DNA from: an archaeon
GTDB taxonomy: Archaea > Asgardarchaeota > Thorarchaeia > Thorarchaeales > Thorarchaeaceae
Direction of reading: 5' to 3'
DNA length: 32,000 nucleotides
NCBI GenBank assembly: GCA_024275415.1
Contig: JAJRZD010000059.1
Coordinates: 1 to 32,000, forward strand
Shown: in pieces, positions 3-24,117 of the stretch
Position numbering within the stretch: the first letter of the stretch is position 1
Layout of the letters: every line of letters starts with the position of its first letter
Notes under the pieces: generated by a model
The model's input: only the letters and a program-made list of their open reading frames with translations
Database searches by the model: none
What the model was told of the DNA's origin: nothing
Made by a program: the position numbers and the translations under genes

Positions 3-434
3 TACATGAACGCATTCCGAGCGCTGCCTATAGCAGGGCTGAGTGAGAATGGAGTGTTCGCATGTCATGGTGGAGTGCCTGAGCATGTTCATTCGTTAGC
101 AGACTTGCAGATTGGAAATAGGTATGCAATCAACTTTGAGGACCCAATCATCATGCAAGTCGTATGGAACGACCCCGTGGAGAGCGATGTCGAGTTCAGA
201 GAGAACATAAGAGGTGCTGGTATTCGAACCTATGGAAAAAGAGCATTCGATAGGTTCATGGAGGACTTGGATCTTACGCTGATGATCAGAGCCCATCAAG
301 TGTTCCCAGAGGGGTATAAGATGTTCTTCGATGGAAAGCTTCTCAGTATCTTCAGCACAAAATACAACGGACGCGTAACACCAAAAGTCGCAAGAATAGG
401 AAAGAACCTCATCTATGAAACCATCCCCATTTGA
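3..434 (+). CDS. PPP-family Ser/Thr protein phosphatase (PP1-like), 5'-truncated by the window edge
   Basis: C-terminal PPP motifs in order: CHGG, WNDP (cf. WSDP), RG, RAHQV..EGY, LLSIFS..Y. The frame is open upstream of ATG at 6, so the gene starts outside the window. Confidence 0.9.
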   Translation, partial: YMNAFRALPIAGLSENGVFACHGGVPEHVHSLADLQIGNRYAINFEDPIIMQVVWNDPVESDVEFRENIRGAGIRTYGKRAFDRFMEDLDLTLMIRAHQVFPEGYKMFFDGKLLSIFSTKYNGRVTPKVARIGKNLIYETIPI

Positions 435-555: not shown

Positions 556-1638
556 ATGGTCAAAGTCGCAGTAGTAAAGACCTCACCAAAGACAGTCTAT
601 GAAGATATTGCTCGTGTTTTGGACGCCGCGGAATACCAGAAATTCGTTTCAAAAGATGTGGCGACAACCATCAAGCTCAATCTCTCGTGGAGTAAATTCT
701 ATCCAGCCTGCTCGACGAACCCCTATGTCTTTGATGGGTTACTGCGAAAGATGATCGCAGATGGGTTCAGCAACCGACGCATTCAGGCAGTCGAGAATGA
801 AACTGTTGTGACGAATATATTTGCAGGCACTCATGGGAACAACTGGTACCCTGTCATCAAGAAGCACAAGATCAAGTTCCTTCCTCTCATCCATGCCAAC
901 TATGTGGATGTCAAACTCCCACGAGAAACTCTCGTCCTTGAAGACACGTTTGGCGAGGTCATCGCTCCCAAGGAGATATTCGGCACAAATATCATCCATC
1001 TTCCAACTTTCAAGACTCACGGCCACACCCAGATGACTGGTGCACTAAAGGATTCCTTTGGACTGTATCTTACAAAGAATAGACATCTTGCACATCTCAA
1101 GATCCATGAGGTACTCGTCGACCTACTATTGCTACAGCAAACTATCTCCCATTCCGAATTCGTTCTGACAGATGGAACGGTAATGGGTGACGGCGCAGGT
1201 CCAAGAACAATGATTCCAAAGATTGGAAACCTACTACTGGCTACTAACGATATGGTGGCTGCGGACACGGTCCAAACAAAAATCATGGGCTTGGATCAGA
1301 AGAAGGTACACAAACTACAGATAGCCAAGGAACTCGGACTTGGTGAGTCAAATCTGGACAACATCGAAATAGTAGGGGATTTCGAGTCTGCAGAGGATCT
1401 TCCCAATTTCCACATGAGTCCAGGGAAAAGCCCTGTGATTGCCTGGAATCGTGGGTTCCTGAAGTTCCCCGGAATGGAAACGTTGTTGTTCCGCTCTCCA
1501 CTGATGTGGCTCCCGACACAGCTCTCCGGATTGTACCACGATGGGTTTTGGCTCCCTCTGAAGGGGAAGAAATGGGTGAAGTGGTTCCTTGAGGAAACTG
1601 AATGGGGCGAACTCTGGAAGACCTACAGCAAGAACTAG
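556..1638 (+). CDS. DUF362 family protein without appended ferredoxin domain
   Basis: N-terminal KVAVVKT, IKLNLSW..FYP..STNP, HLPTFKTHGHTQMTGALK..FG, DGT..GDG.GP and D.VA.D match the DUF362 pattern as I recall it. Only one Cys; SD upstream. Confidence 0.75.
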   Translation: MVKVAVVKTSPKTVYEDIARVLDAAEYQKFVSKDVATTIKLNLSWSKFYPACSTNPYVFDGLLRKMIADGFSNRRIQAVENETVVTNIFAGTHGNNWYPVIKKHKIKFLPLIHANYVDVKLPRETLVLEDTFGEVIAPKEIFGTNIIHLPTFKTHGHTQMTGALKDSFGLYLTKNRHLAHLKIHEVLVDLLLLQQTISHSEFVLTDGTVMGDGAGPRTMIPKIGNLLLATNDMVAADTVQTKIMGLDQKKVHKLQIAKELGLGESNLDNIEIVGDFESAEDLPNFHMSPGKSPVIAWNRGFLKFPGMETLLFRSPLMWLPTQLSGLYHDGFWLPLKGKKWVKWFLEETEWGELWKTYSKN

Positions 1639-1647
1639 GTGATGCGA

Positions 1648-2607
1648 ATGAATATCAAAGACTACTTGAGAATCATGCGGCCACACCAGTGGTACAAGAA
1701 CTTCCTAATCTATCTTGCAATACTCTTTGTCGATGTGCGGGAACCACTGCCTGCCATCCTTAACTTTGTCAACTATATTCCCCTCACACTGGGATTTGCA
1801 GCATTTTGTATGGTTTCAAGTGCGGGTTACATTTTCAATGATGTGAAGGACATCGAAGAAGACGCAGCTCACCCAGAAAAGAAAAATCGTCCTTTACCTG
1901 CTGGAACGATCAGTAGAGAAACTGCTCTGGTATTCGGTGCGGTTCTCATAGTCGCAGGGCTGACGCTGTCCTATTTCCTGAATGGGATATTCTTCATCAT
2001 GGTCATCTTGTACATCCTCAACTCACAGGCCTACAATTATTACTTACGCAAGTACGCTGTTGTCGATGTTGTTACTATTGGAACAGGTTTTATCATTAGG
2101 GCCATATCAGGAACCTTTCTGGTCGCAGTGCCATTCACATCTTGGCTCATCCTTGGTGTATTCTTTGTGGCATTGGTGCTCGGCTTTGGAAAACGCAAGA
2201 ATGAACTCATGTTAATGGGAGAAGATGCTGCCCTTCACAAGCCGGTATTCAAGCAATACAACATGGCATTCTTGGATCAGGCGGTGGGGATGTCGGCGAC
2301 TTGGCTTGTGTTTTTCTACACGCTCTACGTCTACCAGAACTTCGGGCAGTATTTCGATACTCAACCTGTCCTACTCACAGTCCCGATTGTCGCCGGTGTG
2401 ACTTTGCGTTACATCTACCTGATATACATCGGACATCCAGTAGGTAGAAAGCCACACCTTGCCATCAAGGACAAGGGAATGGTCGCGGGAATCATCCTTT
2501 TCGGGCTCATCCTTGCCATCACTGTCCTTAGGATTGGCGACCAGACCATCTGGACAATCATCTTCAACTACTTTAGTGGATTGATTCCAGAGCCTCCGGT
2601 CATGTAG
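1648..2607 (+). CDS. UbiA-superfamily prenyltransferase, decaprenyl-phosphate phosphoribosyltransferase (DPPR synthase)-like
   Basis: RPHQWYKN, Asp-rich NDVKDIEED..HPEK.NRP, D...I..GFIIRA..G, SWL......L.LGFGKR.NE; about 8-9 hydrophobic segments. Start placed at ATG 1648 behind the GGTGA SD (1638-1642); the ORF track starts at GTG 1639. Confidence 0.85.
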   Translation: MNIKDYLRIMRPHQWYKNFLIYLAILFVDVREPLPAILNFVNYIPLTLGFAAFCMVSSAGYIFNDVKDIEEDAAHPEKKNRPLPAGTISRETALVFGAVLIVAGLTLSYFLNGIFFIMVILYILNSQAYNYYLRKYAVVDVVTIGTGFIIRAISGTFLVAVPFTSWLILGVFFVALVLGFGKRKNELMLMGEDAALHKPVFKQYNMAFLDQAVGMSATWLVFFYTLYVYQNFGQYFDTQPVLLTVPIVAGVTLRYIYLIYIGHPVGRKPHLAIKDKGMVAGIILFGLILAITVLRIGDQTIWTIIFNYFSGLIPEPPVM

Positions 2608-2622
2608 GAGTGAGGGACATCA

Positions 2623-3297
2623 TTGAATCGCCGGCTTTCTGCATTTGACCTTCACACGCATACACTGCACTCTAAAGACGGGTTGAACGACCCGAAAGGT
2701 CTCTTCAAGTTGATGAAGAAGAAAAATCTTCGGGGACTGGCATTGACCGAGCATTGGAGAGCGTCCACGCTGAAGGTGATCGAGAAGGACGACCGGTTCA
2801 TATTACCCGCATGCGAGTTCAAGACGACAGACTATGGCGAGGTCATCGGGCTCTTCCTATCAGACCACATCGAAAACAGGACATTCGAGGAGGTAGCAGA
2901 TGATGTCCATGCACAGGGAGGACTGGTCGTACTCCCACATCCGTGCGACCCTCTGAGGAAGCACACAGCCATTCGAAAAGGTCTCCCAGAGAACCTAATG
3001 AGAAAGCATGTAGATTTGATTGAGGGAATTAATTCCCGTTGTATCATCAACCTGTTCAATACATGGGCTCAGAAGCTTGCAAAGAGACTCGAAAAACCTG
3101 TCACGGCAGGCAGTGACGGGCACTCGTTCCTAGAAGTTGGGAACGCTCGGACTTGGTTGCAGGACATCAGTTGTCCAGAGGACATCTACACGGCACTCAA
3201 GAAAGGGAGAACCCAGATAACTGGACACTGCTCGATATTCCTTTACCATATCCCGACAATGCTATGGCAAAGATTGAGGAAGATTGCTTATGAATGA
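2623..3297 (+). CDS. PHP-domain metal-dependent phosphoesterase
   Basis: DLHTH..HS.DG, LTEH, CEF, GEVIGLF, HP.D, EGINSR and GSDGH metal-ligand motifs; TTG start with purine-rich GGAGTGAGGG upstream. Confidence 0.85.
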   Translation: MNRRLSAFDLHTHTLHSKDGLNDPKGLFKLMKKKNLRGLALTEHWRASTLKVIEKDDRFILPACEFKTTDYGEVIGLFLSDHIENRTFEEVADDVHAQGGLVVLPHPCDPLRKHTAIRKGLPENLMRKHVDLIEGINSRCIINLFNTWAQKLAKRLEKPVTAGSDGHSFLEVGNARTWLQDISCPEDIYTALKKGRTQITGHCSIFLYHIPTMLWQRLRKIAYE

Positions 3298-4321
3298 AAT
3301 AGATATAGAACAAGGAACCAAAAGTAGGTCTTTCATCAGTTTTGGTAAACTATTTGCGCTCATCATAGTAGGTATGGTCATCTATCTGTTGATGATGTAC
3401 CTTTCCAAATGGGAAGAAGTCGTTGGCATCATTGTAAACATGGAGTGGTACTGGATCATCCCCACCATGATGATGCTAAGTTTCCTGAACTATGTCATTC
3501 GGTATTTCAAGTGGAACTACTACCTAAAACGGATAGATGTCCACTTCTCCCATGCCGATAGCTTCAGCATCTTCCTTGCGGGTTTCACGCTGACGGTCAG
3601 CCCAGGCAAGATTGGCGAAGCAATCAAGGGATACTTCTGCAGGGACGTGGATGGGACACCAGTGGCCAAGACGATTCCTGTCGTAGTTTCAGAACGAGTG
3701 ACTGACCTGCTTGCCATGGTGTTTCTTGCAGCTTTCACGTTTCTATTCATTTTCACAGAGGGCAACCAGCTTCTGTTTGTTGTTGCGTTAGGAGGCGCCG
3801 TGGTCGTGGGCGCGTTCGTCCTGACCAATAAGACATTCTACAACAAGATTCTCAAACGGATGACCTCATTTGGCCCGCTGAAGCAGTTTCAGGACAGTTG
3901 CGATGTGATCGAAGACACTATGGTTCGCACACTCTCGCCCAAACCCATGATGGTCGGCGTGCTGATAAGCATCCCCGGCTGGTTCATGGAATGCATAGAA
4001 CTGTGGCTCCTTCTCTCAGTCCTCTCTGGAGCTGGTCTGCCATCACTCTCTGCTGCATCATTATTCATCCTTATCCAAGCGACCTTTGTCCATGCCAGCG
4101 CCTCTGCAATCGGGGCTGTCGCATTCTTCGCCCCCGGAGGACTTGGAGCATACGAGATATATGCTCCAGCAGTATTGACCTCGCTCGGTTTCATAGTGGC
4201 AGTGGCGACAGCAAGCACTATCTTGATCAGATTTGTCACTCTGTGGTTCAGCGTCGTCGTTGGGTTTGTGGCACTGGGCATTGTCACCTATCGGAACCGA
4301 AAACGGCATTGTGAAACTTGA
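3290..4321 (+). CDS. UPF0104 / lysylphosphatidylglycerol-synthase TM-region protein (putative flippase, AglD2-like)
   Basis: About 8-9 TM segments with R..KW..YL, PGKIGEAIK, SERV.DL and PGGLG.YE motifs; ATG 3290 overlaps the PHP stop by 8 nt. Confidence 0.8.
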   Translation: MNEIDIEQGTKSRSFISFGKLFALIIVGMVIYLLMMYLSKWEEVVGIIVNMEWYWIIPTMMMLSFLNYVIRYFKWNYYLKRIDVHFSHADSFSIFLAGFTLTVSPGKIGEAIKGYFCRDVDGTPVAKTIPVVVSERVTDLLAMVFLAAFTFLFIFTEGNQLLFVVALGGAVVVGAFVLTNKTFYNKILKRMTSFGPLKQFQDSCDVIEDTMVRTLSPKPMMVGVLISIPGWFMECIELWLLLSVLSGAGLPSLSAASLFILIQATFVHASASAIGAVAFFAPGGLGAYEIYAPAVLTSLGFIVAVATASTILIRFVTLWFSVVVGFVALGIVTYRNRKRHCET

Positions 4322-4353
4322 TCAATGGAAAAGTCATTTCCTAGCGTGTCCAG

Positions 4354-4387
4354 AAAAATGTAGAGTGGGGGAGGAACCCCCATTCTA
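4354..4387 (-). terminator. Hairpin terminator between convergent operons
   Basis: TAGAGTGGGGG (4361-4371), loop AGGAA, CCCCCATTCTA (4377-4387): 11-bp stem with one non-WC pair. On the minus strand it is followed by TTTTT (4358-4354) and starts 11 nt after the stop at 4398. Confidence 0.6.
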
Positions 4388-4397
4388 TCTGTACTAA

Positions 4398-20496: not shown

Positions 20497-20916
20497 CTAG
20501 AGTGGCTCGTCGTCATCCTCATCAAAAGATAGGTCAATCGAGCCAGGTCGCTTCTTTGACACGGTGGGTACTGCACGGAATATTGCCCTTGTGAGTAGTT
20601 TCCATTCCTGATATCTGTGGTGTCGTCCAAGCACCCCTGCAAGGGTGATCACAATGAAGACAACAGAGCCAAAAAGAACCATTTCCCAGATAGAGGAAAA
20701 GTGAGCTGAGGCGGTCATTAAAGCTACAACCGCTACAGCGGACACGATGATAGTGTTGAGATAGCAGTCACAGGTTATATTGAGTTCTGGTGGTCCCAAC
20801 TGGAAATCCTCTGGATCCGAACCCGGTGCTCGGTTCAGGTAATAGTTGAAGACTGCTGCAAGAAGCGTCCCAATTATAATAAGAGCCCCAGTAATGATAT
20901 CCATGTTATTGCACAT
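20497..20916 (-). CDS. Small hypothetical membrane protein (3 TM) with acidic C-terminus
   Basis: Three hydrophobic segments, a basic stretch, then DEDDDEPL. Starts 6 nt after the PIN gene stop; alternative start ATG 20904. Confidence 0.7.
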   Translation of the reverse strand: MCNNMDIITGALIIIGTLLAAVFNYYLNRAPGSDPEDFQLGPPELNITCDCYLNTIIVSAVAVVALMTASAHFSSIWEMVLFGSVVFIVITLAGVLGRHHRYQEWKLLTRAIFRAVPTVSKKRPGSIDLSFDEDDDEPL

Positions 20917-20922
20917 CCAGAT

Positions 20923-22731
20923 TCAATGTTCAGGTTCTGTGATCTTAAGATAGCTGAATCCATACTCTCCTTCGTATGATATCTCAGACGACTTACTCGG
21001 AGTGATTATACACACGACCGAATATGTCTTTCGAACCGTGTCATCTGCCTCAACAAGACTGAACTCTCCTTCAGTCAACGCGACCTTGTGGCCGGACTTT
21101 AACGTCTTTAACAACGGGTGCTGGGAGATATCGATCCCGACTCTGATGTGAAGCTGTTCGTTCCTAACAACAAGCATCTCCATGTCATTGACCTTCTCGA
21201 TCGTGAGGACATCCATCCAACCTTTGAACTCATCAGGGAGTTTGGACAACGGTACAGGCTTCTTGTAGGTCTTGATATTGACGGGAGATAGGTTTCCTTG
21301 CACTTCGTTGAGGATAGGTGTGATACTGTTGGTAGACCAGCCTTTCTTGACAAAGAACTTCAGTGCGTGCTCGGCGTATTTCTCAAGGGCTGCCTTGAGC
21401 TTGTCGTGTGCCGAGGATGATACTTTGTACAGCATCAGGAAAGACGAGAGTGCTGATTCTTCCTTGCCATAGGCGACACCAATCTTGTACGCTGTTTCGG
21501 CTAGCTGCCATGCGTTCTCGTAGTCATTGAACAGTACTGAATACTTGGCGATGTCATTCAGCATCGCGATTGTGACCTCTGGATACTCCAACTTGTTCTT
21601 AGTCAGTGAAAAGCCGCCCATGAACTTTCTGAGGATTTGCATCGTGACATAGAGACCCTCTGATGTTTCCATCATGTCCTCAAGTCCCAATCGCTTCAAC
21701 AGACTGTCATAGAGGCTGTAGTAATAGTCGATCTCCTCATAGTCCTCACGGATAAGTGCGATGACGATACGGACGAAGAACACGGATGCTTTCAGGGAGT
21801 CGTCTTTCACCCCTGTGAACATGAGCAGTCTGAATGCCTCATCACTAATTGCAAGGGCATCCTCAACACCTTCCCGTGTGCCACGATAAAGGTGACATAT
21901 CATATCCAGATAGTAAAGGAATAGCGTCAGGTCAGCAGCATGACCAACAAGCTTCTCATGGGTTTCGTTGTTCTCGGTGAGGGTGGACACGATGAGCAGC
22001 CGTTCGATCTCCGTCTGGACAGCCTCGATTTCTCGTGATAGCGAATCATATTTGCCCAGCTTGAAATCCTCGAACATCGTCGGGATGCCAGCCTTGATGT
22101 CCTCAAGAAAATCAAGAACGAAAAGTGGTTGTCCATGGGTCAAGTCACTGTCAAGTTGGCCTGCGGGTCTCTTTACTTCCCGCAAGACACGCATGGCATG
22201 CTCTTCGATAATCCGTATCCTTGTTACCGGGTCGTATGCCTCTCTACGAGCGATGCTGTATCGTACTTCCTCACCGTAGATACGTTCACGTAATGGAGCG
22301 AGCTTCTTCTTCATTGATTCATCATCAATGGACTCCATCAGTTCTAGGAGGAATGCAGAGCCAACGATGCCAACAATCTCCAGATTGAGGTCTTGAATAG
22401 TGTTCAAGAGTTTCAGGTCGCTGGTGACAATCTTGGAGTTCTTATTCCTCATCGCAGCTAGAACGAGTGACATGTCATTGGGTTGGGGAAGCGAGGACTC
22501 GGGACGGTTGAAGCTGCTAATCAGTTCCTTGATGTCCTTCTTGAGAGTTTCATCGATCTCGACGACCTGCTCTACCTCTCGACGGAGGTACCACCGGAGC
22601 TCTTGAAATACCTGACGTGTTACCCAAAGTTCTATCCCCAACTGATTCGCAGCTTCCTTCACTAGGAAGACATCCTTTGGACGCTCGCTGAATCCGGAAA
22701 TAAAGAAGTTTGCATCTAGATAGGCTCGCAT
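20923..22731 (-). CDS. PIN-domain protein fused to a long alpha-helical (TPR-like) region and a beta-rich C-terminus
   Basis: PIN acidic tetrad: LD6AN, VFQE44L, ND86MSLV, VTSD105. Followed by ~360 aa of helical-looking sequence and ~100 aa beta-rich end. Confidence 0.75.
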   Translation of the reverse strand: MRAYLDANFFISGFSERPKDVFLVKEAANQLGIELWVTRQVFQELRWYLRREVEQVVEIDETLKKDIKELISSFNRPESSLPQPNDMSLVLAAMRNKNSKIVTSDLKLLNTIQDLNLEIVGIVGSAFLLELMESIDDESMKKKLAPLRERIYGEEVRYSIARREAYDPVTRIRIIEEHAMRVLREVKRPAGQLDSDLTHGQPLFVLDFLEDIKAGIPTMFEDFKLGKYDSLSREIEAVQTEIERLLIVSTLTENNETHEKLVGHAADLTLFLYYLDMICHLYRGTREGVEDALAISDEAFRLLMFTGVKDDSLKASVFFVRIVIALIREDYEEIDYYYSLYDSLLKRLGLEDMMETSEGLYVTMQILRKFMGGFSLTKNKLEYPEVTIAMLNDIAKYSVLFNDYENAWQLAETAYKIGVAYGKEESALSSFLMLYKVSSSAHDKLKAALEKYAEHALKFFVKKGWSTNSITPILNEVQGNLSPVNIKTYKKPVPLSKLPDEFKGWMDVLTIEKVNDMEMLVVRNEQLHIRVGIDISQHPLLKTLKSGHKVALTEGEFSLVEADDTVRKTYSVVCIITPSKSSEISYEGEYGFSYLKITEPEH

Positions 22732-22866
22732 TAATCATGTCTCCGCTCAGATAATAATGTCTAGACTCACTCAGGAATGGTTCTGCTGAAGAGCTTGCTT
22801 GTTGGTTTTCAATGCCCATAAAGCACTTTCGCTATGAATGCTCTTGATTTCAATTCGGCATCATAC

Positions 22867-22899
22867 GGTAAAAAGATTCCTTTAGGTAAAGAGATTCCT
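22867..22899. repeat. Imperfect 15-bp direct repeat, 18-bp period; probable U-tract terminator of the GT-C gene
   Basis: GGTAAAAAGATTCCT (22867-22881) and GGTAAAGAGATTCCT (22885-22899). On the minus strand it reads as TCTCTTT and TCTTTTT tracts just downstream of the stop at 22915. Confidence 0.5.
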
Positions 22900-22914
22900 G
22901 TATGGCATGGCGGA

Positions 22915-24081
22915 TTAGGGAGGTGAAAAATCTGGGTACGTTTTGATATGACCAAAGAACTCCTGAATAGGTCCTGCAAGGAAATACTCGAAGTTGAGTA
23001 GGACTCCAAGGAAATGAGCAATTAGCAACCCGATAATCATAAAGCGATATTTCCTCATATCTTCACTATCTTTCAGATAGAACATTGGAATTACCACCCA
23101 GTAATAATACCACATAAGAACCCATGAAACAAATATCAACACCAAAGGCAACAGGAAAATGATGACCATCCTGACATCCCGTTTCCGGAGTTTAGGACGA
23201 GGAAATGGAATTCCGTGCCACGACCCTGTATCAAGGATACCATAGAGCAACACGACTACCAGTACTAAAGGTGCTAGGACTGCAACTGGGTTATTCCATA
23301 TCAGCCCGATATAGAATGGATTCTGAATGGTTGCAGCGTAGTTCGGATCACTTGTGAAATGAGAAACCAATGCGCCATACCCTACGCCTGCCAACATGAG
23401 AGGGACGAATAGGATACCGGCAACAGCTCCGAAAGCGAGAATAGTAATTGGATCCACCAGAAACATCACTGGCAATATCATAATGGGATATGCCTTTGTG
23501 TGAAATGCCAACCCTAAGAATGCGTTGCTCAACCACCTTCGCTCCTGCCTGAAAAGCGATAGAGATACTAGCCAGAAGAAATCCGCCAGTGGATCTGCCT
23601 TCCCGAATCCTACTGACATGAAGAACCCAAAGAAGTAATAGAACCCCCCCATGAACCAGAACCATTTTCGATCCCAGTAGTTCTGACCGATATACAGGAA
23701 CAAAATGATATTGAGGTGGAATATCAGGGTGAACAAGACATTCGCGATGTAGTGGGGGCCATACCATCCGGGCTCTAGAGCTGCGAGTCCAGCATAGACA
23801 AGAAGTGTTATGATAGGATATTCATATGAAACGTTCAGGACATCTGTGAGCAGATGGTCTGATGGGACTGCATACGTTTCATTCAAGTCCTTGTCAGTGC
23901 GATTGAATACCTCCAGACCCTCAATAAGAAACACTTGTCCATAGAGCATGTTTCGGTTCCGATCCCGCTCGATTATAATCGAGTCGATTACGGGAATCAG
24001 GATAAATGAAAGCGTTAGTGAAAGCAAAAGTAGATTCCGATATTTCCGGATGACCTTTCGGAGAGGAATGGTAGCTCCCAT
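22915..24081 (-). CDS. GT-C fold membrane glycosyltransferase (GT87/DUF2029, PimE/PIG-M-like)
   Basis: TM1, then an acidic extracellular loop ending in YEYP; G.AD..ADFF; LGLAFHTK.YP; about 10 TM segments. Start uncertain (24081, 24102 or 24105). Confidence 0.7.
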   Translation of the reverse strand: MGATIPLRKVIRKYRNLLLLSLTLSFILIPVIDSIIIERDRNRNMLYGQVFLIEGLEVFNRTDKDLNETYAVPSDHLLTDVLNVSYEYPIITLLVYAGLAALEPGWYGPHYIANVLFTLIFHLNIILFLYIGQNYWDRKWFWFMGGFYYFFGFFMSVGFGKADPLADFFWLVSLSLFRQERRWLSNAFLGLAFHTKAYPIMILPVMFLVDPITILAFGAVAGILFVPLMLAGVGYGALVSHFTSDPNYAATIQNPFYIGLIWNNPVAVLAPLVLVVVLLYGILDTGSWHGIPFPRPKLRKRDVRMVIIFLLPLVLIFVSWVLMWYYYWVVIPMFYLKDSEDMRKYRFMIIGLLIAHFLGVLLNFEYFLAGPIQEFFGHIKTYPDFSPP

Positions 24082-24117
24082 TTTCACATCCCATATTCCC
24101 ATCACGCCTGTGATGAA

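What the first reader, a model, noticed from the sequence alone, without database searches (positions are those of the whole stretch)
556..4321. Four-gene operon that reads like a lipid-linked pentose donor pathway in an archaeon
Seen: DUF362, DPPR-synthase-like UbiA, PHP phosphoesterase and UPF0104 flippase-like genes with gaps or overlaps of 15 nt or less. Known: in Actinobacteria, Rv3806c joins PRPP to decaprenyl-P, a phosphatase removes the 5'-phosphate, DprE1/E2 epimerise to arabinose, and a membrane protein assists export for GT-C transferases. Inference: here UbiA makes polyprenyl/dolichyl-P-ribose-5-P, the PHP enzyme replaces the PAP2 phosphatase, and UPF0104 flips the donor. That would give ribosyl or arabinosyl surface glycans by a non-actinobacterial gene set.
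Basis: partly seen in the sequence, partly recalled or inferred. Interest (0 to 1): 0.7.

Follow-up and report, generated by a model that had tools for sequence, protein, structure and literature searches.

The report
Asgard lipid-linked pentose donor operon
Four tightly packed genes in a Thorarchaeota (Asgard) genome most likely load ribose phosphate onto a membrane lipid carrier, trim it and flip it outward for surface glycosylation. This is a bacterial-type pathway built with different helper enzymes, one of them an uncharacterised relative of lactate racemase.

Summary
Window 556-4321 (+) holds DUF362, a UbiA-family gene, a PHP phosphoesterase and an LPG_synthase_TM/UPF0104 gene, with junctions of +15 nt to -14 nt.

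The UbiA is of the Rv3806c type (polyprenyl-phosphate phosphoribosyltransferase). It matches the solved Rv3806c at E 2.6e-30, against 1.8e-8 for DGGGP synthase. It keeps 11 of 13 experimentally defined PRPP and lipid-phosphate ligands. The genome has separate DGGGPS-like and MenA-like UbiAs.

The quartet is present in the same order in 19 of 19 Thorarchaeota loci examined. Outside that group the conserved core is UbiA plus this DUF362 subfamily: 14 of 19 other Asgard loci and 12 of 23 loci from other archaeal lineages, in four orientations. PHP is often present and GT-C glycosyltransferases are sometimes adjacent.

DUF362 folds like LarA (Z 14.5-16) and keeps a His/Lys/His motif at the LarA cofactor positions. 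However, LarC was found in only 1 of 10 other carrier genomes, so dependence on the nickel-pincer cofactor is doubtful.

Verdict: an archaeal variant of the three-component pentofuranosylation systems described in bacteria in 2024, not a new kind of system. The sugar made and the role of DUF362 remain open. This scan has already noted the same operon on other genomes.

The parts
556..1638 (+). DUF362-family protein (360 aa), LarA-like fold. Candidate sugar-modifying (epimerase or redox) enzyme, or another processing enzyme, acting on the lipid-linked pentose.
   Evidence: PF04015, E 6e-20. AF2 model pLDDT 93.2. The only strong fold matches are LarA-superfamily enzymes, Z 14.5-16, with the next hit at 5.7. 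Invariant H155/K165/H180 align with LarA H174/K184/H200. Identity is 80-93% across Thorarchaeota and about 47% to other archaeal phyla. It lies next to the UbiA in many lineages.
1639..2607 (+). UbiA-superfamily polyprenyl-phosphate 5-phosphoribosyltransferase (Rv3806c/DPPRS type). The likely start is ATG 1648.
   Evidence: NF008977, 212 bits, against 39 bits or less for DGGGPS models. PDB 8j8j Rv3806c, E 2.6e-30. Equivalents of R22, K28, Y70, N73, D77, K87, R90, Y138, K143, Y157 and K191 are conserved. Orthologues are 319 aa.
2623..3297 (+). PHP-family metal-dependent phosphoesterase. Candidate 5'-phosphatase of polyprenyl-P-ribose-5-P.
   Evidence: PHP_C 48.9 bits, PHP 25.1 bits, CehA/McbA domain 72.5 bits. 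Invariant H11, H13, H44, E65, H106, D165 and H167 over 19 orthologues. AF2 pLDDT 93.5; Foldseek probability 1.00 to PHP phosphoesterases, including RNase AM, TM0559, Cv1693 and YcdX.
3284..4321 (+). LPG_synthase_TM / UPF0104 (arCOG00899-type) membrane protein. Candidate flippase of the lipid-linked sugar.
   Evidence: PF03706, 122.7 bits; TIGR00374, 70 bits. The family was predicted to act as flippases in archaeal glycosylation (PMC5898192). It also follows DUF362-UbiA in a Methanocella-like contig and pairs with DUF362 in another Asgard family.
3..434 (+). C-terminal part of a calcineurin-like phosphoesterase (Metallophos). Conserved upstream neighbour; whether it belongs to the unit is uncertain.
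   Evidence: PF00149, E 7e-5. A homologue lies upstream of the quartet in nearly all Thorarchaeota loci. It is separated from the DUF362 gene by 121 nt.
22915..24105 (-). GT87-like multi-pass membrane protein. Tentative GT-C transferase that could use the lipid-linked donor; the link to the operon is weak.
   Evidence: GT87, E 8e-4, below cut-off. Protein-language features place it among GT87/GT-C clusters, score 0.97. It lies within about 7 kb of the quartet in 4 other Thorarchaeota loci but 18.6 kb away here.

Best explanation
The four genes form an operon that makes a lipid-linked pentofuranose donor for glycosylation outside the cell.

- **Step 2** (inferred from family and context): the PHP metallo-phosphoesterase removes the 5'-phosphate. 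This is the job done by PAP2 Rv3807c in mycobacteria and by a fused HAD domain in Citrobacter.
- **Step 3** (hypothesis): the DUF362 protein has the two-domain LarA fold and a conserved His/Lys/His site. It modifies the lipid-linked ribose on the cytoplasmic face, most plausibly by a hidden-redox epimerisation at C2' or C3', in place of DprE1/DprE2 or the SDR-type epimerase.
- **Step 4** (inferred): the UPF0104 protein flips the product.
- **Step 5**: a GT-C enzyme encoded elsewhere then adds the pentose to a surface glycan or glycoprotein. The GT87-like gene at 22915-24105 is one candidate.
For: **UbiA identity**
- DPPRS models score 212, 167 and 137 bits, against 39 bits or less for DGGGPS, heme O synthase and UbiA models.
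- The solved Rv3806c matches at E 2.6e-30 over residues 10-280.
- Residues shown by mutagenesis to bind PRPP, Mg and the lipid phosphate (PMC10994848) are kept. Most are invariant in 18 archaeal orthologues.
- The genome's other two UbiAs are DGGGPS-like and MenA-like.
- A Methanocella-like orthologue passes the DPPRS equivalog cut-off, 238.5 bits against 234.

**Operon and context**
- The quartet is present in 19 of 19 Thorarchaeota loci.
- UbiA plus DUF362 are linked in other Asgard families and in Woese-, Nano- and Micrarchaeota, Methanosarcinales and Methanocella-like contigs. The arrangements are upstream, downstream, convergent and divergent.
- PHP is adjacent in 10 of 42 non-Thorarchaeota loci.
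- PMT_2-type GT-C genes are adjacent in some loci. GT2 and Glycos_transf_4 genes are common neighbours.

**Accessory enzymes**
- PHP has an intact active site and the PHP fold.
- UPF0104 carries a published flippase prediction.
- DUF362 has the LarA fold and motif.
- In several lineages an intein sits exactly at K153|T154 of the invariant KTHGH motif. This marks the motif as a functionally critical site.
- No DprE1-type (ALO) domain was found in this genome, while the control rang in Corynebacterium.

**Precedent**
- Bacterial three-component pentofuranose systems are described in PMC11127046.
Against: - There is no biochemical evidence for any step, and no known archaeal glycan has been tied to such a donor (one search found no relevant paper).
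- No GT-C gene lies in the operon. The GT87-like gene is 18.6 kb away and scores below the Pfam cut-off.
- The UbiA scores below NCBI's equivalog cut-off, 212 against 234 bits. Gln135 and Lys208 of Rv3806c have only neighbouring equivalents.
- The role of DUF362 is open:
  - The sequence link to LarA is weak (hhalign local E 0.05).
  - The second LarA catalytic His (H108) has no conserved counterpart.
  - LarC was found in only 1 of 10 other archaeal genomes carrying the DUF362-UbiA pair.
  - DUF362 is nearly always present while PHP is often absent. An essential role, even the phosphatase step, is therefore as compatible with the data as an optional epimerase.
- In one Asgard family this DUF362 subfamily pairs with UPF0104 and two unknown membrane proteins, with no detectable DPPRS-type UbiA.
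Confidence: 0.6

Rival explanations
1. The pathway makes a membrane lipid head group rather than a glycosyl donor. The UbiA-type enzyme phosphoribosylates a lipid phosphate, for example an archaetidic-acid-type or polyprenyl phosphate. PHP and DUF362 tailor the head group. UPF0104 flips the finished glycolipid to the outer leaflet, as MprF and the predicted GpgF do for modified phospholipids.
For: Characterised or proposed partners of the UPF0104/LPG_synthase_TM family are modified membrane lipids, namely Lys-PG and GlcN-PG. No GT-C gene lies in the Thorarchaeota operon. DUF362 pairs with UPF0104 even without the UbiA in one Asgard family.
Against: The lipid-phosphate ligands and overall similarity match Rv3806c, which uses polyprenyl phosphate. 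GT-C (PMT_2), GT2 and Glycos_transf_4 genes neighbour the pair in other archaea. UPF0104 is also the C-terminal domain of the Dol-P-hexose synthase AglD.
Confidence: 0.17
2. DUF362, not PHP, performs the obligatory processing step. This could be 5'-dephosphorylation or another essential conversion of the phosphoribosyl lipid at a His-rich metal site, with no epimerisation. The product is then simply polyprenyl-P-ribofuranose, and PHP is an auxiliary or unrelated phosphoesterase.
For: DUF362 is the near-constant partner of the UbiA, while PHP is missing from most non-Thorarchaeota loci. The Methanocella-like triad lacks PHP. DUF362 has many invariant His, Asp and Cys residues. LarC is missing from 9 of 10 carriers.
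Against: The only structural relatives are hydride-shuttling racemases and epimerases. The conserved His/Lys/His residues sit at the LarA cofactor positions. PHP has an intact phosphoesterase site and is translationally coupled to its neighbours in the operon.
Confidence: 0.15
3. The UbiA homologue is an ordinary prenyl-diphosphate-dependent prenyltransferase in a small-molecule (cofactor or secondary-metabolite) pathway. The resemblance to DPPR synthase is only phylogenetic.
For: The score is below the NCBIfam equivalog cut-off. Many databases name these proteins '4-hydroxybenzoate polyprenyltransferase'. Two PRPP-site residues are shifted.
Against: The K/R cluster, the 5'-phosphate ligands K28 and Y70, and the basic residue replacing the second Asp-rich motif (K191) are specific to Rv3806c. 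All are kept here. Scores against all prenyltransferase models are 5 to 10 times lower. The genomic context is glycosylation.
Confidence: 0.05

Closest known systems
Three-component extracytoplasmic pentofuranosylation systems of Gram-negative bacteria (Citrobacter youngae O1/O2: ORF15 PRP-PPPRS, ORF14 MATE flippase, ORF12 GT-C/GT136, ORF13 epimerase; Kelly et al. 2024, PMC11127046)
   Same: An Rv3806c-type UbiA enzyme sits at the entry point. Dedicated 5'-phosphatase, flippase and optional sugar-modifying functions are encoded beside it. GT-C genes are adjacent in some archaeal versions.
   Different: The phosphatase is a separate PHP protein, not a fused HAD domain. The flippase candidate is UPF0104, not MATE. 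The candidate modifying enzyme is a LarA-fold DUF362, not an SDR epimerase or DprE1/E2. No GT136 or other GT-C gene lies in this operon. The host is an Asgard archaeon, so the carrier is probably a dolichol-type lipid.
Mycobacterial decaprenyl-phospho-arabinose pathway (Rv3806c DPPRS, Rv3807c PAP2 phosphatase, DprE1/DprE2, Rv3789, Emb/Aft GT-C enzymes)
   Same: The first enzyme is homologous, with conserved PRPP, Mg and lipid-phosphate ligands. The order of steps is the same.
   Different: No PAP2, DprE1 or DprE2 homologue lies in the operon, and no ALO-domain protein was found in the genome. The flippase family differs. The sugar produced is unknown.
LarA superfamily (nickel-pincer-nucleotide 2-hydroxyacid racemases and epimerases; PDB 5huq, 9eia, 7s91, 9q3j)
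   Same: The DUF362 model superposes on both LarA domains, Z 14.5-16. The His-x9-Lys...His residues lie at the positions of the catalytic His, the cofactor-tethering Lys and the Ni-ligand His. Pfam places DUF362 and DUF2088 in one clan (PMC11770544).
   Different: There is no Lar_N or Lar_C Pfam match. The second catalytic His is not conserved. DUF362 is about 70 residues shorter and has its own Trp-rich C-terminal helices. Most other carriers lack LarC. The presumed substrate is a lipid-linked sugar, not a hydroxyacid.
Haloferax volcanii AglD/AglR/AglS branch of N-glycosylation (Dol-P-mannose made inside, flipped, and added outside)
   Same: The logic is the same: a single sugar is charged on dolichyl phosphate and delivered across the membrane. 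The UPF0104 domain is the C-terminal half of AglD.
   Different: Here the sugar donor is PRPP acting through a UbiA-fold enzyme, not a nucleotide sugar acting through a GT2 enzyme.

Membership tests
Rv3806c-type polyprenyl-phosphate phosphoribosyltransferases (DPPRS/PPPRS clade of the UbiA superfamily) | Closer to DPPRS profiles and structure than to any prenyl-diphosphate-dependent UbiA clade | tested here: met
   NF008977 scores 212 bits, NF008978 167 and NF008976 137, against 65 bits or less for all prenyltransferase models. PDB 8j8j matches at E 2.6e-30, against DGGGPS at 1.8e-8. The score is below NCBI's equivalog cut-off of 234, although a Methanocella-like orthologue passes it.
Rv3806c-type polyprenyl-phosphate phosphoribosyltransferases (DPPRS/PPPRS clade of the UbiA superfamily) | PRPP pyrophosphate K/R cluster (R22, K87, R90, K143), Mg ligands (N73, D77), 5'-phosphate ligands (K28, Y70) and lipid-phosphate ligands (K28, Y157, K191) | tested here: met
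   These map to R14, K81, R84, R137, N67, D71, K20, Y64, F151 and K185. Most are invariant in 18 archaeal orthologues. Q135 and K208 have only adjacent equivalents, Q130 and K201.
Rv3806c-type polyprenyl-phosphate phosphoribosyltransferases (DPPRS/PPPRS clade of the UbiA superfamily) | PRPP-dependent transfer of ribose-5-P to a polyprenyl phosphate | not testable with these tools
   Needs an enzyme assay.
Three-component pentofuranosylation system (Kelly et al. 2024) | [quoted passage not shown] | tested here: not met
   Neither the UbiA nor its neighbours carry a HAD domain. A PHP phosphoesterase stands in that place.
Three-component pentofuranosylation system (Kelly et al. 2024) | MATE-family flippase | tested here: not met
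   The membrane protein in the operon is LPG_synthase_TM/UPF0104.
Three-component pentofuranosylation system (Kelly et al. 2024) | GT-C transferase (GT136) encoded with the system | tested here: inconclusive
   There is none in the operon. A GT87-like GT-C candidate lies 18.6 kb away. PMT_2-type GT-C genes are adjacent to the UbiA/DUF362 pair in L142 and L157, and in 4 of 23 non-Asgard loci by an iterated profile.
LarA superfamily (NPN-dependent racemases and epimerases), tested for the DUF362 protein | LarA two-domain fold | tested here: met
   VIA-align Z is 16.0 (9eia), 15.7 (7s91, 9q3j), 14.9 (5huq) and 14.5 (4nar), over model residues 5-341. The next hit is 5.7. Foldseek probability is 0.96-1.00.
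LarA superfamily (NPN-dependent racemases and epimerases), tested for the DUF362 protein | Cofactor and catalytic residues His174, Lys184 and His200, plus second catalytic His108 (L. plantarum numbering) | tested here: inconclusive
   H155, K165 and H180 align to H174, K184 and H200. The H-to-K spacing of +10 is the same, and the residues are invariant in the subfamily and kept in other DUF362 paralogues. However, the profile alignment is weak (E 0.05), and no conserved counterpart of H108 was seen.
LarA superfamily (NPN-dependent racemases and epimerases), tested for the DUF362 protein | Carrier genomes encode NPN biosynthesis (LarB/LarC/LarE) | tested here: not met
   This genome has LarC, LarE and LarA. 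Only 1 of 10 other archaeal genomes carrying the DUF362-UbiA pair has a LarC match, with either TIGR00299 or PF01969. The completeness of those genomes is unknown.
PHP metal-dependent phosphoesterases | PHP fold with the His/Asp/Glu metal ligands (HxH, H, E, H, DxH) | tested here: met
   H11, H13, H44, E65, H106, D165 and H167 are invariant over 19 orthologues. Foldseek gives probability 1.00 for 35 PHP-family chains at E of 1e-3 or better.
UPF0104 / LPG_synthase_TM (arCOG00899) flippase-like proteins | Full-length match to PF03706/TIGR00374 above cut-off | tested here: met
   122.7 bits (cut-off 33.4) over profile positions 1-302; TIGR00374 at 70.1 bits (cut-off 43.2). Flippase activity itself cannot be tested here.
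Mycobacterial DPA pathway | DprE1 (FAD oxidase with ALO domain) and DprE2 epimerase pair | tested here: not met
   No PF04030 match in the 92.9%-complete genome, while the control rang in Corynebacterium glutamicum. DprE2 was not searched separately.

The most novel reading that the evidence does not exclude
The DUF362 protein is a new kind of LarA-fold catalyst that works on a lipid-linked sugar. It would be a single-enzyme 2'- or 3'-epimerase of polyprenyl/dolichyl-P-ribose, replacing the DprE1/DprE2 pair. It would use the His/Lys/His site with a nickel-pincer cofactor or, in the many carriers that lack LarC, a different bound cofactor. That would give the large DUF362 family its first function and take LarA-type chemistry beyond 2-hydroxyacids.
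Probability: 0.3. Interest if true: 0.8.

Novelty: new variant of a known kind. Interest (0 to 1): 0.6.

Why it matters
Nothing is known experimentally about the surface glycans of Asgard archaea, the closest prokaryotic relatives of eukaryotes.

This operon predicts a concrete and testable product: a dolichyl- or polyprenyl-phospho-pentofuranose made from PRPP. It extends a pathway known from mycobacteria and some Gram-negative bacteria to many archaeal lineages.

It also gives DUF362 a defined genetic partner and a plausible substrate. DUF362 is a widespread family with no known function and a lactate-racemase-like fold. According to a 2026 paper (PMC13524815), known reactions of the LarA family are still limited to the racemisation and epimerisation of hydroxyacids.

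Cultured or enrichable carriers make lipidomic and glycoproteomic tests feasible. One candidate is suggested by a database label: an orthologue is labelled Methanocella conradii by its source, although the contig examined here is from a metagenome assembly. An earlier, unverified note of this scan also names a Promethearchaeum gene string.

Tried and rejected
- **Profile comparison of DUF362 with LarA.** hhalign of the DUF362 alignment against a single LarA sequence and in global mode gave nothing. Only local mode against a 30-sequence LarA alignment gave the motif alignment, at E 0.05. The residue mapping is therefore suggestive, not proven.
- **Sequence searches against solved structures.** Searches with DUF362, PHP, UPF0104 and the GT87-like protein found no solved relatives.
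- **Neighbourhoods of distant DUF362 representatives.** Look-ups by the look-up of encoding contigs landed on contigs of 2-5 kb and were uninformative. I therefore could not independently test the earlier notes that lar genes sit beside this module in some bacteria.
- **Phyletic profile of DUF362.** The genome search profile is incomplete. For example, G008 scored no match although its locus L066 holds a 285-bit homologue. I relied on direct locus inspection instead.
- **UbiA phylogeny.** A tree with named bacterial DPPRS, MenA, UbiA and DGGGPS references could not be built, because no named reference sequences were retrievable. Profile scores and the PDB comparison were used instead.
- **Promoter and terminator scan.** The bacterial-type scan showed no excess over shuffles and does not apply to archaea.
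- **Giant surface proteins as acceptors.** The idea that the adjacent giant surface proteins receive the pentose was considered but not pursued. In most other Thorarchaeota a tRNA-synthetase gene separates them from the operon, so the adjacency may be inherited gene order.

Full report
**Where the window comes from.** The closest database relatives of the UbiA and DUF362 proteins are all labelled Candidatus Thorarchaeota. The window is contig C38, positions 1-32000, of a 3.5-Mb assembly that is 92.9% complete.

**Observation.** Positions 556-4321 (+) hold four ORFs.
- DUF362, 556-1638: PF04015, E 6e-20.
- A UbiA-family protein, 1639-2607. The likely start is ATG 1648, because orthologues are 319 aa.
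- A PHP phosphoesterase, 2623-3297: PHP_C 48.9 bits; PHP 25.1 bits, just under its cut-off.
- An LPG_synthase_TM/UPF0104 protein, 3284-4321: 122.7 bits; TIGR00374 'flippase-like' 70 bits.

**The UbiA enzyme.**
- NCBIfam's three decaprenyl-phosphate phosphoribosyltransferase models score 212, 167 and 137 bits. NF006088 scores 150 bits, matched over its C-terminal positions 191-478 of 482. DGGGP synthase, heme O synthase, MenA and UbiA models score 65 bits or less.
- Against solved structures, Rv3806c (8j8j) matches at E 2.6e-30 over residues 10-280. DGGGP synthase matches at 1.8e-8 over a short stretch.
- The cryo-EM and mutagenesis study of Rv3806c (PMC10994848) names these ligands:
  - pyrophosphate K/R cluster: R22, K87, R90, K143;
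  - Mg ligands: N73, D77;
  - 5'-phosphate ligands: K28, Y70, Y157;
  - ribose ligands: N73, Q135;
  - also Y138, and the lipid-phosphate ligands K28, Y157, K191, and K208.
- In the HMMER alignment these map to R14, K81, R84, R137, N67, D71, K20, Y64, F151, Y132 and K185. The paper notes that Phe also occurs at position 157 in some mycobacteria.
- Q135 and K208 have only neighbouring equivalents (Q130, K201).
- Most of these residues are invariant in an alignment of 18 archaeal orthologues that reaches down to 29% identity.
- The genome has two further UbiA-family genes. One is DGGGPS-like and one MenA-like, so the window's gene is not the lipid or quinone prenyltransferase.

**Co-conservation.**
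- In a sample of 200 genomes of the same phylum, the UbiA is present in 37 of 43 genomes of the window's family, and in 37 of 40 of a second family at 33-41% identity.
- I fetched about 20 kb around 39 of these genes and searched the six-frame ORFs with the window's proteins.
- All 19 long Thorarchaeota loci have DUF362-UbiA-PHP-UPF0104 in that order.
- In one genome PHP and UPF0104 lie in a single open frame (L041).
- The five family members that lack the UbiA also lack the DUF362. These genomes are 74-85% complete.
- In other Asgard families the UbiA has this DUF362 subfamily within about 10 kb in 14 of 19 loci, PHP in 4, and no UPF0104.
- A pattern scan of one genome per species added loci labelled Woesearchaeota, Nanoarchaeota, Micrarchaeota, Altiarchaeales, Methanosarcinales and Heimdallarchaeota.
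- Of 23 non-Asgard loci, many on short contigs, 12 have the DUF362 subfamily, 6 have PHP and 2 have UPF0104.
- The pair occurs in four arrangements:
  - DUF362 upstream on the same strand (Thorarchaeota, L071, L138, L145, L151);
  - DUF362 downstream on the same strand (L054, L059, L062, L063, L065, L148);
  - convergent (L137, L141, L142, L158);
  - divergent (L146, L153, L154).
- A single-copy gene would lie within 10 kb of another by chance in about 1% of genomes of this size. The linkage is therefore functional, not accidental.
- A contig whose DUF362 protein is labelled Methanocella conradii by its source has DUF362-UbiA-UPF0104 without PHP.
- Neighbours in these loci are glycosylation genes: PMT_2-type GT-C transferases directly adjacent (L142, L157), GT2, and Glycos_transf_4 phosphoglycosyltransferases.
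- The widely conserved core is UbiA plus DUF362. The full quartet is a Thorarchaeota form.

**PHP.**
- An alignment of 19 orthologues down to 25% identity keeps H11, H13, H44, E65, H106, D165 and H167, which are the PHP metal ligands.
- The AF2 model (pLDDT 93.5) matches PHP phosphoesterases with probability 1.00. Matches include RNase AM, TM0559, BVU_3505, EndoQ, the bisphosphate phosphatase Cv1693, YcdX and histidinol phosphatase.
- A role as the 5'-phosphatase is a reasonable inference from family and position. It is not shown.

**UPF0104.** Makarova et al. (PMC5898192) predicted this family (arCOG00899, pfam03706) to be flippases of archaeal glycosylation pathways. It forms the C-terminal domain of the dolichyl-phosphate hexose synthase AglD and is related to the flippase part of MprF. 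A bacterial member is the predicted flippase of GlcN-PG.

**DUF362.**
- This is the most conserved protein of the set: 80-93% identity within Thorarchaeota, against about 60% for the UbiA, and about 47% to homologues from other archaeal phyla.
- The AF2 model is confident (pLDDT 93.2, pTM 0.92).
- Its only strong structural relatives are LarA-superfamily enzymes: Z 16.0 (9eia), 15.7 (7s91, 9q3j), 14.9 (5huq) and 14.5 (4nar), covering residues 5-341. The next hit is at 5.7. Foldseek agrees.
- Pfam places DUF362 and DUF2088 (LarA) in one clan (PMC11770544).
- I aligned a LarA of this genome to L. plantarum LarA to fix the numbering.
- A local profile-profile alignment of DUF362 against 30 Asgard LarAs then puts H155, K165 and H180 on LarA H174 (catalytic), K184 (cofactor tether) and H200 (nickel ligand). 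The His-to-Lys spacing is identical.
- That alignment is weak (E 0.05). However, the three residues are invariant in the subfamily and largely kept in five other DUF362 paralogues.
- LarA's second catalytic His (H108) has no conserved counterpart.
- In several lineages a roughly 520-aa intein interrupts the gene exactly between K153 and T154 of the invariant KTHGH motif. The intein starts with Cys and ends with His-Asn. Inteins typically sit in catalytic sites, which supports the importance of this motif.
- The last 70 residues form Trp-rich helices absent from LarA. I read this as a possible membrane-interface anchor (inference only).

**Is DUF362 a nickel-pincer enzyme?**
- This genome encodes LarC, LarE and LarA homologues, so the cofactor is available here.
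- In ten other archaeal genomes that carry the DUF362-UbiA pair (0.8-1.7 Mb, completeness unknown), LarC was found in only one. Two different models gave the same result.
- Earlier notes of this scan report lar genes beside the same module in some bacteria. I could not check them.
- On my own evidence, nickel-pincer dependence is possible here but cannot be a general property of the subfamily.
- No DprE1-type ALO domain occurs in this genome, so the mycobacterial epimerase is not present.

**An exception.** One Asgard family (f12) has this DUF362 subfamily at 37-39% identity but no DPPRS-type UbiA was found (0 of 19 genomes). There the DUF362 sits in a conserved string: UPF0104, then DUF362, then two unknown multi-pass membrane proteins. 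DUF362 plus UPF0104 can therefore work with another membrane enzyme.

**Conclusion.**
- The locus is best read as an archaeal version of the lipid-linked pentofuranose donor pathways described for mycobacteria and, in 2024, for Gram-negative bacteria as 'three-component systems' (PMC11127046).
- The entry enzyme is homologous. The phosphatase, the flippase candidate and the candidate modifying enzyme belong to different families.
- Whether the donor carries ribose, arabinose or another pentose, which GT-C uses it, and what it decorates are unknown.
- The GT87-like gene at 22915-24105 is a candidate transferase.
- The two adjacent genes of about 2,600 aa are conceivable acceptors, but nothing links them beyond gene order.
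- The same operon has been noted by this scan on several other Thorarchaeota genomes, and related modules in other phyla. My independent tests reach the same reading and add the LarC counter-check.

Noticed in passing
L031:610-3339 (G161) and homologues in G075, G037, G098, G158; representatives P0244-P0247, P0258, P0260, P0261: In several lineages the DUF362 gene carries an intein of about 520 aa. It is inserted exactly between K153 and T154 of the invariant KTHGH motif, starts with Cys and ends with His-Asn. The window's own copy has no intein.
   Followed up: partly
L196:5611-10430, L197:5511-10352, L198, L199:7184-12522: In one Asgard family with no detectable DPPRS-type UbiA, the same DUF362 subfamily sits in a conserved string: LPG_synthase_TM, then DUF362, then two unknown membrane proteins of 405-454 aa. 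A large LVIVD-repeat surface protein lies beside it in L196.
   Followed up: partly
L137, L141, L142, L153 (DPANN-type contigs); L138, L147, L151, L154: Many non-Asgard loci add a second, more distant DUF362 paralogue next to an FAD amine-oxidase/CrtI-like oxidoreductase. This could be an oxidase/reductase pair analogous to DprE1/E2, or a lipid-saturating enzyme.
   Followed up: no
L052, L054, L056, L059, L063, L065 (second Asgard family): Directly upstream of the UbiA lies a membrane protein of about 850 aa with 9-10 predicted helices and a Peptidase_M48 domain. It is often preceded by a Glycos_transf_4 phosphoglycosyltransferase.
   Followed up: no
window 4322-4397 and 20497-24105, compared with L034-L050: Gene order differs here from most other Thorarchaeota. 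There, a class-I (Tyr/Trp-type) tRNA-synthetase gene lies between the operon and the giant genes, and the GT87-like/PIN/3-TM block lies upstream of the Metallophos gene. In this window the synthetase gene is absent and that block lies beyond the giant genes.
   Followed up: partly
window 4362-4382: The 76-nt spacer between the convergent UPF0104 and giant genes holds a GC-rich hairpin (GTGGGGG-AGGAA-CCCCCAT). It may be a two-way terminator.
   Followed up: no
G129:C129:71855-73006, G147:C2:232079-233230, G180:C346:7817-8968, G052:C28:62526-63560: The DUF362 matches in three genomes of one genus include one in-frame TAA, and one other genome has an in-frame TGA. This may only be the natural stop read through at the end of the match.
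   Followed up: no
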